64,000 nucleotides of DNA from a virus: the IMG/VR virus record IMGVR_UViG_3300042934_000619, positions 1 to 64,000 of that record. One strand, written 5' to 3'. This document shows, in pieces, positions 49,422 to 63,109 of this stretch. The position numbers and the translations under genes are program-made. Numbering within the stretch: the stretch's first letter is position 1; every line of letters starts with the position of its first letter. Under the pieces are notes generated by a model, which searched no databases, was not told the origin of the DNA, and worked only from the letters and a program-made list of their open reading frames with translations.

Positions 49422-49522
49422 GGGCGGGTAGCTCAATGGGCGCATGAGGAGGTGGCCACCTTCGATTGCATATGCCGATGGTAGAGCGCCGGAGGTTGCG
49501 GGTTCGAGTCCCGTCCCGTCCA
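49422..49522 (+). ncRNA. tRNA-like RNA: Ala-identity acceptor, 49-nt D-loop, no anticodon arm
   Basis: GGGCGGG/CCCGTCC-A (G3-U70, A73), TAGCTC...GAGC, GCGGG-TTCGAGT-CCCGT; only 10 nt between D and T stems. Confidence 0.75.
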
Positions 49523-59521: not shown

Positions 59522-59596
59522 AGCGGGATAGCGCAGTTCGGTTAGCGCGCCGGGGCCATGACTCGGAGGTCGCAGGTTCAAATCCTGCTCCCGCAA
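59522..59596 (+). tRNA. tRNA-Met (CAT) with atypical anticodon loop
   Basis: Cloverleaf; A1:A72 mismatch; loop GC-CAT-GA; GCAGG-TTCAAAT-CCTGC. Confidence 0.8.
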
Positions 59597-59621
59597 CACC
59601 GCTCGGTTCGGGGAGGTTGGG

Positions 59622-59992: not shown

Positions 59993-60022
59993 TTGACCTT
60001 GAGGGCGGGGACCCGATAGGTT
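59993..60022 (+). promoter_or_regulatory. HrdB-type promoter for the Y-RNA/ro operon
   Basis: TTGACC-N18-TAGGTT. Confidence 0.65.
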
Positions 60023-60080: not shown

Positions 60081-60217
60081 CTGTCTGGTGCGCAGACGAC
60101 GGATACTTCACTGTTAATGAAGAGGTCCGGGGTTCGAGTCCCCGCCCGCTGGTAAAAAGGTGGGTAGCTCAGTTGGTAGAGCACTTACGTTTCCGTTGTC
60201 GACTTGATCTCAGACAG
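60081..60217 (+). ncRNA. Y-RNA-like element 1 with permuted tRNA-Asn(GTT) domain
   Basis: Terminal stem CTGTCTG/CAGACAG; GTGCGCAG...TGATCT; arm order anticodon, T, acceptor hairpin, D. Confidence 0.85.
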
Positions 60218-60237
60218 TTCAATTCAAAAGTGCGCAA

Positions 60238-60312
60238 GCGTCCGGTGCGAAGGCAACGACGGCTACTTCTTTTGGTGAAATCACGCCGTCACGCCGTACT
60301 GATCTCGGACGC
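60238..60312 (+). ncRNA. Y-RNA-like element 2 (short, no tRNA domain)
   Basis: GCGTCCG/CGGACGC stem; GTGCGAAG, TACTTC, TGATCT. Confidence 0.75.
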
Positions 60313-60321
60313 GTACAACTT

Positions 60322-60461
60322 GTGCCTGGTGCGCAGATGAGGAGTTCTTCGCCTTGGGAGCGGGAGGTCGCGGGTTCAAATCCCGTTCGGTCGGCAGAGC
60401 TGACCGGTAGCTCAGTCTGGAAGAGCGCCTACGATCGCCTCGTCGACTTGATCTCAGGCAC
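60322..60461 (+). ncRNA. Y-RNA-like element 3 with permuted tRNA-Pro(TGG) domain
   Basis: GTGCCTG/CAGGCAC stem; TTCGC-CTTGGGA-GCGGG, T-arm, acceptor hairpin, D-arm. Confidence 0.85.
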
Positions 60462-60471
60462 GAAAATCAGA

Positions 60472-60592
60472 TGTCCGGTGCGCAGGACGACGCGTTCATC
60501 GATGGTTCGACCCCACCCGGGAGTCCCTCGCAAGAGGCTCGCTCCTGTTGCCCACTTGGGGGCAGCTCGCGTTTCCGATCTGATCTCGGACA
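60472..60592 (+). ncRNA. Y-RNA-like element 4 (YrlA-type, T/acceptor/D arms, no anticodon arm)
   Basis: TGTCCG/CGGACA stem; GGTTCGACCC T-loop; conserved flanking motifs. Confidence 0.78.
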
Positions 60593-60598
60593 GTACAA

Positions 60599-60750
60599 GG
60601 GTGCGTAGCTCAGAAGGTAGAGCGGCCCGAAAACGGACGGGCGGCGTGTCGAGACGGTTGCGGATGCACCGAATGGCTCTCGCAGGGTCTGTAGGGAAGC
60701 GCGTTTTCCAAGCTCGGCTCACGGCGCGGGTTCGAGTCCCGTCGCATCCA
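60599..60750 (+). ncRNA. tRNA-like RNA: Ala-identity acceptor, 8-nt anticodon loop, roughly 80-nt variable-arm insert
   Basis: GGGTGCG/CGCATCC-A (G3-U70, A73), TAGCTCAGAAGGTAGAGC, GCGGG-TTCGAGT-CCCGT. Confidence 0.75.
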
Positions 60751-60940: not shown

Positions 60941-61027
60941 GGTTCCTGGTGCGAAGCCACCACGGGTACTTCATTTCTCTCTCAAAGAAACCCGAACCCC
61001 GTATCGGCACCCCTGATCTCAGGAACC
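60941..61027 (+). ncRNA. Y-RNA-like element 5 (short, pyrimidine-rich loop)
   Basis: GGTTCCTG/CAGGAACC stem; GTGCGAAG, TACTTC, TGATCT; immediately upstream of ro. Confidence 0.78.
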
Positions 61028-61073
61028 GCATGACCACCGGCACGACCGGTGCGACAGGAAGGAAGATGGAGAC

Positions 61074-62756
61074 ATGGCGCGCTTCAACTCGCGTGGACAC
61101 CGGGCGAAGCCTGCGGTGGCGACGGTAAGCAGTCCGATCGGTACTGCCACGAAGAAGGCGAACACCCGTACGTTCGAAGGCGGCGCGGGATACACGCGTG
61201 ATGCCAAGACGGAGCTGTTCCTGCGTGCGACCGGTGCGTTCCACGGCGGCGAGGGCAGCTTCTACGAGTCCGCCGACAAGCGCGACAACCGGCTTCGTGA
61301 GCTGGTACGTACGATCGCGATCGAAGACCCGGACTGGGGATTCGAGTTCGCGCGCTGGCTCCGGTCCGAGGGTCACATGCGCACGGCATCGCTGATGTTC
61401 GCCGTCGAGTACGTGCACGAGCGACTCGATGCGGAAGCGCAGGAGCCGCGCACCACCAAGTACACCAACCGTCAGATCATCGACGTCGTATGCCAGCGTC
61501 CCGACGAGCCTGGCGAGATCCTCGCGATCTGGACGGCGTGGTACGGGCGGAACATCCCGCAGTCGGTCAAGCGCGGCGTCGCCGACGCGGTTCGGCGTCT
61601 GTACAGCGAGCGCTCGCTGCTCAAGTACGACACGGACTCGAAGGCGTACCGCTTCGCCGACGTGCTGGATCTGACGCACCCGACGCCGTCCCCCGAGAAG
61701 GCCGCATGGCAGGGCCTGCTGTTCTCGTACGCCCTCAACCGGCGGCACGGACGTGGGGATGACATCCCCAGCACGCTGGATATCATCCGCAACAACGCCT
61801 CGTTCCGAGCGCGGGCGGCTGAGACGCACTCGTTGCTGTGCTCGCCGGACGCTCTGCGTGCAGCGGGCATGACGTGGGAGGACGCGCTGTCCCTCGCGGG
61901 CCAAGTAGGCGTCGACAAGCGCAAGGTCTGGGAGGCCATGATCCCCTCCATGGGGATCATGGCGCTGATCCGCAACCTGCGGAACTTCGACCAGGCTGGC
62001 GTCTCCGACGAGGTGGCCATGACGGTCATGGAGCGCCTGGCCAACCCCGAGGAGATCGCCCGGTCCAAGCAGTTCCCGTTCCGGTTCCTCGCCGCGCACC
62101 GCGCGACCAAGGACTCCCTGCGGTGGGCGTGGCCGCTGGAGCAGGCGCTTGGTCACTCGCTGGTCAACGTCCCCCGGCTCGACGGCCGGACGCTGATCCT
62201 CGTCGACCGGTCGCCGTCCATGTTCCCGGAGTACGACCACTGGTTCCCGACGCTGAAGAAGTCGGACATCAGCCGCGCCGACCAGGCTGCGGTGTTCGGC
62301 GCCGCGCTGGCCGTCCGTGCAGAGCAGCCGACGCTCGTGGAGTTCGGCGGCGGCTCGCGGGTGATCACCTTCCAGCGCGGTACGTCCGTGCTGAAGCTGG
62401 TCGACAAGTTCTACCGGGACCCGGGTACGGACATCCCGAGCGCGGTGAAGAAGCATTACGACGGGCACGACCGGGTCGTCATCCTCACCGACGAGCAGAC
62501 CCGCCCCGGGTCCCTTCCGTCGAACATGTGGCGGAGCTACGGTGGCATGCGTGAGACGGAGGTCAACGACCTCGTCCCGAAGCACGTCCCTGTATTCATG
62601 TGGAATTTCGCCGGTTACTCGGCGGCGGCCATGCCGTCCGGGAACGAGGCGCGGTTCCACCTCGGCGGACTCACCGACAAGGCATTCCAACTCATTCCGA
62701 TTCTGGAATCCGGAGTGAATGGCAGCTGGCCCTGGGAACTGGACAGCACACCCTGA
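61074..62756 (+). CDS. rsr: Ro60/Rsr TROVE-vWA RNA-binding protein
   Basis: FYESA..R, WLR....MRT, QRPDEPGE, KRGVADAV, LKYD, L.HP.P, ALIRNLRNF, SKQFPFRF; C-terminal vWA (LVDRS.SM, GTD, LTDEQ). Confidence 0.93.
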   Translation: MARFNSRGHRAKPAVATVSSPIGTATKKANTRTFEGGAGYTRDAKTELFLRATGAFHGGEGSFYESADKRDNRLRELVRTIAIEDPDWGFEFARWLRSEGHMRTASLMFAVEYVHERLDAEAQEPRTTKYTNRQIIDVVCQRPDEPGEILAIWTAWYGRNIPQSVKRGVADAVRRLYSERSLLKYDTDSKAYRFADVLDLTHPTPSPEKAAWQGLLFSYALNRRHGRGDDIPSTLDIIRNNASFRARAAETHSLLCSPDALRAAGMTWEDALSLAGQVGVDKRKVWEAMIPSMGIMALIRNLRNFDQAGVSDEVAMTVMERLANPEEIARSKQFPFRFLAAHRATKDSLRWAWPLEQALGHSLVNVPRLDGRTLILVDRSPSMFPEYDHWFPTLKKSDISRADQAAVFGAALAVRAEQPTLVEFGGGSRVITFQRGTSVLKLVDKFYRDPGTDIPSAVKKHYDGHDRVVILTDEQTRPGSLPSNMWRSYGGMRETEVNDLVPKHVPVFMWNFAGYSAAAMPSGNEARFHLGGLTDKAFQLIPILESGVNGSWPWELDSTP

Positions 62757-62960: not shown

Positions 62961-63034
62961 GACCTCGTAGCTCAGTTGGATAGAGCGGTGGATTCCTAAT
63001 CCGCAGGTCGCAGGTTCGAGTCCTGCCGTGGTCA
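62961..63034 (+). tRNA. tRNA-Arg (CCT)
   Basis: Canonical cloverleaf, loop TT-CCT-AA. Confidence 0.93.
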
Positions 63035-63035
63035 C

Positions 63036-63109
63036 GGACGCGTAGCCCAATTGGTAGAGGCGTCTGGCTCAGGTCCAGAAGGTTGGGGGTTCGAATCCCT
63101 CCGTGTCCA
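63036..63109 (+). tRNA. tRNA-Leu (CAG), short variable loop
   Basis: Cloverleaf, loop CT-CAG-GT, A73. Confidence 0.85.

What the first reader, a model, noticed from the sequence alone, without database searches (positions are those of the whole stretch)
60081..60461. Circularly permuted tRNAs that retain canonical anticodon arms (Asn GUU, Pro UGG)
Seen: order is anticodon arm (CTTCA-CTGTTAA-TGAAG; TTCGC-CTTGGGA-GCGGG), AGGTC variable loop, T-arm, acceptor 3' strand, short loop, acceptor 5' strand, TA, D-arm, so the backbone break lies between the D and anticodon arms and the acceptor end is sealed by a loop. Established: YrlA tRNA-like domains are usually described with T, acceptor and D arms. 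Inference: unchargeable full tRNA mimics that expose real anticodon loops as bait or modification substrates, or precursors that could be cut and ligated into working tRNAs.
Basis: partly seen in the sequence, partly recalled or inferred. Interest (0 to 1): 0.8.

Follow-up and report, generated by a model that had tools for sequence, protein, structure and literature searches.

The report
Y RNAs carrying whole permuted tRNAs
Two small RNA genes just upstream of a phage's Ro60 gene are YrlA-type Y RNAs whose tRNA-like part keeps a canonical anticodon arm; this arm turns out to be common across the YrlA family, has a conserved loop frame but fast-changing "anticodon" letters, and so most likely mimics tRNA and does not decode.

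Summary
At 60081-60217 and 60322-61461-type coordinates (second unit 60322-60461), a Ro60-binding stem encloses, in order, a 5-bp/7-nt hairpin (loops CUGUUAA and CUUGGGA), a 5-nt AGGUC linker, a T arm, a loop-sealed acceptor hairpin, U8-A9 and a D arm. A TROVE/Ro60 gene lies 0.6-1 kb downstream on the same strand.

These are YrlA-class Y RNAs. The permuted-tRNA layout is already published. The same hairpin was drawn as a "less conserved V stem-loop", and YrlA was said to lack an anticodon loop.

My survey shows the arm is common in the family:
- 76 of 107 modules beside Rsr genes have it.
- 99 of 107 modules from a hairpin-blind IMG/VR pattern have it.
- The inner stem pairs covary.
- U33, R37 and A38 are nearly fixed.
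- 36-37 is almost always UA or GG.

Positions 34-35 change at least as fast as synonymous sites of rsr (11/22 versus 0.19). The Asn and Pro identities are therefore not conserved.

The acceptor hairpin is 1-10 bp, CCA is not encoded, nucleotide 73 does not track the anticodon, and the phage has no RtcB or CCA-adding enzyme. These RNAs are most likely tRNA mimics; bait for anticodon-loop enzymes is possible but untested.

The parts
59993..60022 (+). Possible promoter of the Y RNA array (TTGACC, 18 nt, TAGGTT)
Evidence: Read from the sequence. The sigma-70 consensus scan did not call it.
60081..60217 (+). Y RNA unit U1: YrlA-type with a complete permuted tRNA module ('anticodon' GUU)
   Evidence: The minimum-free-energy fold gives a closing stem plus four hairpins. 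Rfam YrlA scores 41.9 bits, E = 4e-7, below the gathering score of 69.
60087..60095 (+). U1 5'-strand motif GGTGCGCAG, a likely Ro60 contact
   Evidence: Shared by all five units of the array. It resembles the GNCGAAN0-1G motif of Chen et al. 2014. Binding is not shown.
60106..60122 (+). U1 anticodon-like arm: CTTCA / CTGTTAA / TGAAG
   Evidence: The Rfam tRNA model aligns it as positions 27-43.
60123..60127 (+). U1 5-nt variable-loop equivalent AGGTC (C48 pairs with G15 of the D loop)
   Evidence: Nucleotides 15 and 48 covary in 107 of 107 modules: G-C 84, A-U 23.
60128..60144 (+). U1 T arm
60145..60164 (+). U1 acceptor hairpin: 6 bp (two G-U) closed by an 8-nt loop, with no free ends
60165..60182 (+). 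U1 U8-A9 and D arm
60183..60188 (+). U1 6-nt linker ACTTAC between the D stem and the closing stem (family pattern RCYUAC)
60241..60313 (+). Short Y unit without T or D arms that keeps the UACUUC motif and a small hairpin
60322..60461 (+). Y RNA unit U2: YrlA-type with a complete permuted tRNA module ('anticodon' UGG)
   Evidence: Rfam YrlA 35.8 bits over T, acceptor and D. Homologous unit in Gordonia phage VanLee. The fold is supported by comparison and not by minimum free energy.
60348..60364 (+). U2 anticodon-like arm: TTCGC / CTTGGGA / GCGGG
   Evidence: VanLee has the same stem with loop CTTCTAA.
60370..60386 (+). U2 T arm
60387..60407 (+). U2 acceptor hairpin: 8 bp with a 5-nt loop. Compensatory changes against VanLee.
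60408..60426 (+). U2 U8-A9 and D arm
60472..60595 (+). Y unit with a different, non-tRNA cargo
60941..61028 (+). Short Y unit just upstream of rsr
   Evidence: z = -2.9.
61074..62756 (+). Ro60/Rsr (TROVE) gene, the presumed protein partner
   Evidence: Pfam TROVE, E = 2.5e-21. Annotated 'Ro-like RNA binding protein' in related phages.

Best explanation
U1 and U2 are YrlA-class Y RNAs, the RNA partners of the phage's Ro60/Rsr protein. A stem made from the 5' and 3' ends carries the Ro60-binding motif. That stem enters a complete, circularly permuted tRNA fold at the 26/27 junction. The acceptor end is sealed by a loop.

The fourth arm is homologous in form to a tRNA anticodon arm. Selection keeps it as a generic anticodon-arm mimic: 5 bp, a 7-nt loop, U33, UA or GG at 36-37, and A38. 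Positions 34-35 are free or diversifying.

The RNA therefore most likely presents a full-length tRNA look-alike to tRNA-handling proteins, such as modification enzymes, nucleases or other tRNA binders, while tethered to Ro60. It does not decode.

Shown: the anatomy, the linkage to rsr, the family-wide conservation and the substitution pattern. Inferred: Ro60 binding, the three-dimensional stacking of the arm, and which proteins read the loop.
For: Identity and context:
- TROVE gene 0.6-1 kb downstream on the same strand.
- Rfam YrlA is the best non-tRNA match (41.9 and 35.8 bits).
- A homologous unit sits upstream of the Ro-like gene of Gordonia phage VanLee.
- The U1 minimum-free-energy fold equals the proposed fold.

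The arm is real and widespread:
- 76 of 107 permuted modules next to Rsr genes (43 IMG/VR and 80 chromosomal loci) have a hairpin with at least 4 of 5 pairs and a 7-nt loop.
- AC helix covariation: pair 30-40 is CG 31, GC 31, AU 2, UA 1; pair 31-39 is AU 49, CG 10, GC 5, UA 5. Covariation score 0.455 against 0.178 in shuffles, exceeded in 0 of 500.
- A hairpin-blind IMG/VR pattern gave 99 of 107 with at least 4 of 5 pairs, U33 in 102, R37 in 106, A38 in 102, and the 15-48 Levitt pair in 107 of 107.
- 36-37 coupling: UA 72, GG 26, GA 2, UG 0. Fisher p = 5e-22, not corrected for relatedness.

The anticodon letters are not conserved:
- In 11 independent close pairs, positions 34-35 differ at 11 of 22 sites, the AC stem at 0 of 110, and 32/33/37/38 at 4 of 44.
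- The acceptor loop plus post-D linker differ at 26 of 222 (Fisher p = 5e-5).
- Four-fold sites of rsr differ at 657 of 3429 = 0.19 (binomial p = 0.001).

Published support:
- YrlA is modified by tRNA enzymes and folds as a tRNA L-shape.
Against: - Both units score below Rfam's gathering threshold for YrlA (69 bits).
- U2's own minimum-free-energy structure does not show the arm and its z-score is +0.6.
- No expression, Ro60-binding or modification data exist for this phage.
- The 5' strand of the arm overlaps the UACUUC motif, which also occurs in short Y units that lack T and D arms. Part of the conservation may therefore serve another function.
- The closing stem abuts the arm with no linker. 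In three dimensions the arm may stack on the Ro60 stem and not under the D stem.
- The rate comparison rests on 11 pairs, mostly chromosomal. Four-fold sites in high-GC genomes are not strictly neutral.
Confidence: 0.72

Rival explanations
1. Programmable bait, decoy or sensor. The exposed loop imitates particular host tRNAs so that anticodon-loop nucleases or other anticodon-reading proteins are titrated, or their attack is sensed by the Ro60 particle. Letters 34-35 switch in an arms race. This is a sharper version of the best explanation and does not exclude it.
For: - Positions 34-35 change faster than any other part of the RNA and faster than rsr four-fold sites.
- Two units in one array carry different triplets: GUU and UGG here, GCG and CAU in L032.
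- The phage's own tRNA-Met has an altered loop, G32 C33 ... G37. This is the kind of change proposed to evade anticodon nucleases.
- Hughes et al. 2020 proposed that YrlA is a competitive inhibitor of an anticodon nuclease.
Against: - No nuclease is identified.
- The same pattern occurs in chromosomal YrlA of many Actinomycetota, not only in phages.
- The excess over synonymous sites is modest (11 of 22 sites) and could reflect plain neutrality at 34-35.
- The triplets are dominated by NNU and NNG and do not obviously match known nuclease targets.
Confidence: 0.3
2. Precursors of working tRNAs. The acceptor loop is opened by RNase P and 3' trimming with CCA addition. The Ro60 stem is then either excised and the ends ligated, or kept as a two-piece tRNA that decodes Asn and Pro codons.
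For: - M. smegmatis YrlA, with a 7-bp acceptor, is cut by RNase P and receives CCA in vivo.
- U2 has a 7-8 bp acceptor hairpin.
- After computational un-permutation, ARAGORN calls U1 tRNA-Asn(gtt) and U2 tRNA-Pro(tgg).
- Algal permuted tRNA genes show that such processing exists in eukaryotes.
Against: - Acceptor hairpins range from 1 to 10 bp, and CCA follows in only 6 of 107.
- Nucleotide 73 shows no relation to the anticodon. GUU modules have G 3, U 6, C 3, A 1.
- U1 has a 6-bp stem with an A1-G72 mismatch.
- The phage has no RtcB or CCA-adding enzyme, and no bacterial splicing endonuclease is known.
- The triplet flips between near-identical homologues.
- C36 and A36 anticodons are nearly absent, although GNN codons dominate in high-GC genomes.
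- ARAGORN is lenient. It still calls about 58% when the hairpin is shuffled.
Confidence: 0.05
3. The hairpin is not an anticodon-arm mimic. It is a variable-arm-like strut or a Y-RNA-specific protein-binding hairpin (the 'V' stem-loop of Chen et al. 2014), and its likeness to an anticodon loop is a relic of origin from a dimeric tRNA.
For: - Chen et al. drew it as V.
- The UACUUC motif and a small UUC...GAA hairpin persist in short Y units without T or D arms.
- 31 of 107 modules, including the M. smegmatis type, have only a 3-bp mini-hairpin.
- There is no linker between the closing stem and the hairpin.
Against: - A relic would not keep U33, A38 and loop length 7 in about 95% of very diverged phage modules, nor the UA/GG coupling at 36-37 that follows tRNA rules.
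- The arm is followed by a canonical 5-nt linker ending in the Levitt partner. A class II variable arm would be followed by 1-2 nt.
- U1 keeps 5 bp and 7 nt despite a one-base register shift relative to the family.
Confidence: 0.2

Closest known systems
YrlA Y RNAs (Salmonella Typhimurium, M. smegmatis, mycobacteriophages; Rfam RF02553; Chen et al. 2014, Wang et al. 2018)
   Same: - Encoded just upstream of Ro60/Rsr on the same strand.
- A 5'/3' stem carrying a Ro60 motif.
- T arm, then loop-closed acceptor, then D arm.
- The Levitt pair covaries.
- Already described as resembling circularly permuted tRNA.
   Different: - The solved Salmonella YrlA has no anticodon loop, and its 'anticodon stem' is the Ro60 stem.
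- Here, and in most phage and actinobacterial relatives, a separate 5-bp/7-nt arm with a tRNA-type loop is present.
- Both units score below the Rfam gathering threshold.
D. radiodurans Yrn1
   Same: A Ro60-bound Y RNA for which a possible 'anticodon arm' with a 5-bp stem was noted.
   Different: Yrn1 has a 6-nt loop, no full D arm, a different arm order and no variable loop.
Circularly permuted tRNA genes of Cyanidioschyzon merolae and some archaea (Soma et al. 2007, as cited)
   Same: The 3' half precedes the 5' half, and the acceptor is first closed by a loop.
   Different: - Those genes are processed through a circular intermediate by a splicing endonuclease and a ligase to working tRNAs.
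- Here the junction stem binds Ro60, no such enzymes are known, and the acceptor length and anticodon are not conserved.
tmRNA and viral tRNA-like structures (TYMV TLS)
   Same: tRNA mimics that use the L-shape to recruit tRNA enzymes.
   Different: They have a free CCA end and are aminoacylated. These RNAs have a sealed acceptor.
Phage tRNAs with altered anticodon loops (van den Berg et al. 2023)
   Same: Phage-borne anticodon loops that evolve under pressure from tRNA-targeting defences. This phage's tRNA-Met is an example.
   Different: Those are working, chargeable tRNAs. They are not Ro60-tethered mimics.

Membership tests
YrlA (Y RNA-like A) | Encoded within about 4 kb of a Ro60/TROVE gene on the same strand | tested here: met
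   TROVE ORF 61074-62756 on the + strand. U1 and U2 lie 0.6-1 kb upstream on the + strand.
YrlA (Y RNA-like A) | The 5' and 3' ends pair into a stem carrying a GNCGAAN0-1G-like motif on the 5' strand | tested here: inconclusive
   The stems fold. The motif is GUGCGCAG in U1 and U2 and GUGCGAAG in two sister units, a near match only. Ro60 binding was not tested.
YrlA (Y RNA-like A) | T arm, loop-closed acceptor hairpin and D arm, in that order, with tRNA tertiary signatures | tested here: met
   The 15-48 pair covaries in 107 of 107.
YrlA (Y RNA-like A) | Reaches the Rfam RF02553 gathering score (69 bits) | tested here: not met
   41.9 bits (E = 4e-7) and 35.8 bits. The model's lower stem is not satisfied because a hairpin sits there.
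YrlA (Y RNA-like A) | Bound by Ro60/Rsr in vivo | not testable with these tools
   Needs immunoprecipitation.
Functional tRNA | Contiguous cloverleaf with free 5' and 3' acceptor ends, called by tRNA finders | tested here: not met
   ARAGORN finds only Met, Arg and Leu in the genome. Rfam tRNA gives only a partial 26.8-bit match, below the gathering score of 29. The acceptor is sealed.
Functional tRNA | Anticodon and identity elements conserved among orthologues | tested here: not met
   Positions 34-35 differ at 11 of 22 sites in close pairs. Nucleotide 73 is unrelated to the anticodon.
Permuted tRNA gene (processed to tRNA) | The 3' half lies upstream of the 5' half, joined through the acceptor | tested here: met
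Permuted tRNA gene (processed to tRNA) | Excision and ligation machinery, and a mature circular or religated product | tested here: inconclusive
   The phage has no RtcB or CCA-adding enzyme. Host enzymes and RNA products were not examined.

The most novel reading that the evidence does not exclude
The four-armed form of YrlA, widespread in phages and bacteria, is a Ro60-tethered, programmable anticodon-loop bait. The loop frame is kept so that anticodon-loop enzymes (t6A37 or m1G37 writers, or anticodon nucleases) accept it. Letters 34-35 are under diversifying selection to match whichever tRNA is being attacked or read. This would make Ro60-Y RNA particles players in conflicts over tRNA.
Probability: 0.2. 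Interest if true: 0.85.

Novelty: new variant of a known kind. Interest (0 to 1): 0.55.

Why it matters
What the tRNA-like domain of bacterial and phage Y RNAs binds has been an open question since 2014. The published structure, from Salmonella, has no anticodon loop. The hairpin seen here was filed as a poorly conserved variable arm.

This survey shows that most phage and actinobacterial YrlA RNAs carry a canonical anticodon arm, with tRNA-type rules at 33 and 36-38 and unusually fast change at 34-35. That narrows the candidate partners to proteins that read anticodon loops and gives direct tests: modification mapping, nuclease assays and anticodon swaps. It also fits the model that YrlA arose from a dimeric tRNA.

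There is a practical point too. These arms cause false tRNA calls in phage annotations, for example VanLee's only 'tRNA'.

Tried and rejected
- **Rfam at gathering thresholds** found nothing at the locus. Only the E-value mode showed the YrlA matches.
- **ARAGORN on un-permuted sequences** called 100 of 107, and 76 of 76 canonical modules. It is a weak test, because about 58% are still called when the hairpin is shuffled. I do not lean on it.
- **RNAfold of U2 alone** does not recover the arm, so U2's arm rests on comparison.
- **The sigma-70 scan** did not call a promoter for the array. The TTGACC-18-TAGGTT site is only read from the sequence.
- **Close-pair rate analysis on the IMG/VR pattern set** gave only 3 pairs, too few to use.
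- **RtcB and CCA-adding enzyme** were searched for in the phage and are absent.
- **Literature gaps.** The supplement of Chen et al. 2014 and the reviews by Sim & Wolin 2018 and Sim et al. 2020 are not held. I cannot exclude that one of them already calls this hairpin an anticodon arm. Full-text searches found no such statement.
- **Recent capture from a real tRNA** was considered. I rejected it because the 5' strand is the fixed family motif UUC and the scaffold is shared across different triplets.

Full report
**What is there**

The genome is a complete 102,442-bp virus record with terminal repeats. The window carries phage replication genes: PolA, an SNF2 helicase, a PD-(D/E)XK nuclease and AAA_24. 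ORF 61074-62756 (+) has a TROVE domain (E = 2.5e-21). Its relatives in Streptomyces, Gordonia and Arthrobacter phages are annotated as Ro-like RNA-binding proteins.

Upstream, between 60081 and 61028, lie five units. Each has a terminal stem, GGTGCG(C/A)AG on the 5' side and TGATCTC on the 3' side. The order is a 5-bp/7-nt hairpin, AGGTC, a T arm, a loop-closed acceptor hairpin, TA, a D arm and a 6-nt linker back into the closing stem (coordinates).

RNAfold gives this structure as the minimum-free-energy fold for U1 (-50.9 kcal/mol, z = -2.7). It does not for U2 (z = +0.6), whose centroid keeps only the T, acceptor and D hairpins. Rfam's best non-tRNA match is YrlA at 41.9 and 35.8 bits, below the gathering score of 69. 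The tRNA model aligns U1's hairpin, linker and T arm as positions 27-63 (26.8 bits). ARAGORN does not call either unit.

**What is already known**

- Chen et al. 2014 (PMC4201824) found YrlA RNAs next to Ro60 in more than 250 bacteria and phages. They described T, acceptor (closed) and D arms. [quoted passage not shown]
- M. smegmatis YrlA, with a 7-bp acceptor, is cut by RNase P and receives CCA in vivo.
- Wang et al. 2018 (bioRxiv 10.1101/312249) solved the Salmonella domain. They state that 'YrlA lacks the anticodon loop'. [quoted passage not shown] They discuss origin from dimeric tRNA transcripts and possible processing like algal permuted tRNAs.
- Hughes et al. 2020 suggested that YrlA could competitively inhibit an anticodon nuclease.

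The permutation and the cut-and-ligate idea are therefore not new. Reading the hairpin as a canonical anticodon arm appears to be new, within what I could search. Two reviews and the 2014 supplement were not available.

**Is the arm real, and how general is it?**

Using the Rsr protein I fetched 43 IMG/VR loci and 80 chromosomal Actinomycetota loci. A script found 107 permuted modules: a T arm, a hairpin and a D arm, preceded by the Y motif. Of these, 76 have a hairpin with at least 4 of 5 pairs and a 7-nt loop immediately before a 4-5-nt linker. The remaining 31 mostly have a 3-bp mini-hairpin of the M. smegmatis type.

On an alignment of 72 arms (A1), the AC helix is 93.8% paired. This percentage is inflated because the set was selected for pairing, but the covariation is not affected in the same way. 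Pair 30-40 is CG 31, GC 31, AU 2, UA 1. Pair 31-39 is AU 49, CG 10, GC 5, UA 5. Neither has an unpaired cell. The covariation score is 0.455 against 0.178 in shuffles (exceeded in 0 of 500) and at most 0.12 for slid partners.

To remove the selection bias I scanned IMG/VR with a pattern that fixes only TACTTC, GGTY and the T arm and leaves 15 free letters. Of these, 110 are permuted and 107 are unique.

| Feature in the 107 unique modules | Count |
|---|---|
| 5 of 5 stem pairs | 82 |
| 4 of 5 stem pairs | 17 |
| U33 | 102 |
| Purine at 37 | 106 |
| A38 | 102 |
| 36-38 = UAA | 70 |
| 36-38 = GGA | 24 |
| 15-48 Levitt pair formed | 107 (G-C 84, A-U 23) |

Many of these come from low-GC phages. 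One locus is on a 308,141-bp contig, the record length of Caulobacter phage CcrPW. The four-armed form is thus common across the YrlA family and is not a peculiarity of this phage.

U1 keeps 5 bp and 7 nt even though it has lost one base relative to the family register. U2 and its VanLee homologue share the arm stem but differ in the loop (CUUGGGA versus CUUCUAA), and they show compensatory changes in the acceptor hairpin.

**Do the anticodons mean Asn and Pro?**

No. Across modules the triplets include GUU, GCU, UGU, CUU, CAU, GAU, CCU, UGG, AUU, ACU, GGU, CUG, GUG and others.

I took 11 independent pairs of near-identical modules and counted differences per site.

| Region | Differences / sites |
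|---|---|
| Positions 34-35 | 11 / 22 |
| Position 36 | 1 / 11 |
| Positions 32, 33, 37, 38 | 4 / 44 |
| AC stem | 0 / 110 |
| T arm | 5 / 187 |
| D arm | 5 / 199 |
| Acceptor loop plus post-D linker | 26 / 222 |
| Four-fold degenerate sites of the adjacent rsr gene | 657 / 3429 (0.19) |

Positions 34-35 exceed the loosest regions of the RNA (Fisher p = 5e-5) and the synonymous sites (binomial p = 0.001). In two pairs (L021/L022 and L060/L070) the only difference in the whole module is one anticodon letter, while rsr four-fold sites differ by 18-20%.

So the frame is frozen and letters 34-35 are at least neutral and possibly diversifying. Position 36 is U or G and is tightly coupled to 37: UA 72, GG 26, GA 2, UG 0. 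From my own knowledge of tRNA biology, U36-A37 is the context for t6A37 and G36-G37 is the context for m1G37. C36 and A36 are nearly absent.

**Could they become working tRNAs?**

This is unlikely, for several reasons:
- Acceptor hairpins range from 1 to 10 consecutive pairs.
- CCA follows in 6 of 107.
- Nucleotide 73 is unrelated to the triplet.
- U1 has only 6 pairs, with an A-G mismatch at 1-72.
- The phage encodes neither RtcB nor a CCA-adding enzyme.

U2's 7-8-bp stem could be an RNase P substrate, by analogy with M. smegmatis. That is an inference only.

**Topology caveat**

The closing stem runs right up to the arm. The UAC before the arm pairs with bases after the 6-nt post-D linker. 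The arm could therefore stack on the Ro60 stem instead of under the D stem. The UACUUC motif is also kept in short Y units without T or D arms, so part of the 5'-strand conservation may serve something else.

**Verdict**

The interpretation as sealed full tRNA mimics is supported, and 'retained Asn/Pro anticodons' is not. The tRNA-precursor idea is improbable. The bait or modification-substrate idea is plausible and now testable. These RNAs are members of the YrlA kind, in a widespread four-armed form that the literature has not, as far as I could find, recognised as carrying a canonical anticodon arm.

Noticed in passing
window 60599-60750: A non-permuted tRNA-like gene (7-bp acceptor with G3-U70, normal D and T arms) has about 95 nt in place of a normal anticodon/variable region. 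Rfam tRNA scores it 38.9 bits. Similar DNA is unannotated in Streptomyces phages GiJojo, Comrade and others.
   Followed up: no
window 49422-49522: A second tRNA-like gene (Rfam tRNA 39.4 bits, above the gathering score) has a 44-nt insert in the D region and no anticodon arm.
   Followed up: no
window 59522-59597: The phage tRNA-Met(CAU) has an unusual anticodon loop, G32 C33 CAU G37 A38, and so lacks the near-universal U33 (alignment). This resembles the loop changes proposed to evade anticodon nucleases.
   Followed up: partly
L001:2477-2548 (Gordonia phage VanLee, NC_073474.1 65454-65525): The record's only annotated tRNA, tRNA-Arg(tct), is the anticodon-like arm plus T arm of a YrlA unit upstream of the Ro-like gene. 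ARAGORN of 76 such units as tRNAs in their native context, so phage tRNA counts can be inflated.
   Followed up: partly
window 63006-63061: The junction of the adjacent tRNA-Arg and tRNA-Leu genes scores 30.4 bits with the Rfam YrlA model. This illustrates why a dimeric tRNA is a credible ancestor of YrlA.
   Followed up: no
window 60241-60313, 60472-60595, 60941-61028: Three further Y-like units share the same handle but carry other cargo. The two short ones keep UACUUC and a small UUC...GAA hairpin, a pattern repeated in many loci.
   Followed up: partly
L032:2083 and L032:2246; L003, L004, L006, L036: Other phages also carry two tRNA-like Y units per array. Some have two four-armed units with different triplets (L032: GCG and CAU). 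Others have one four-armed unit plus one with only a 3-bp mini-hairpin.
   Followed up: no
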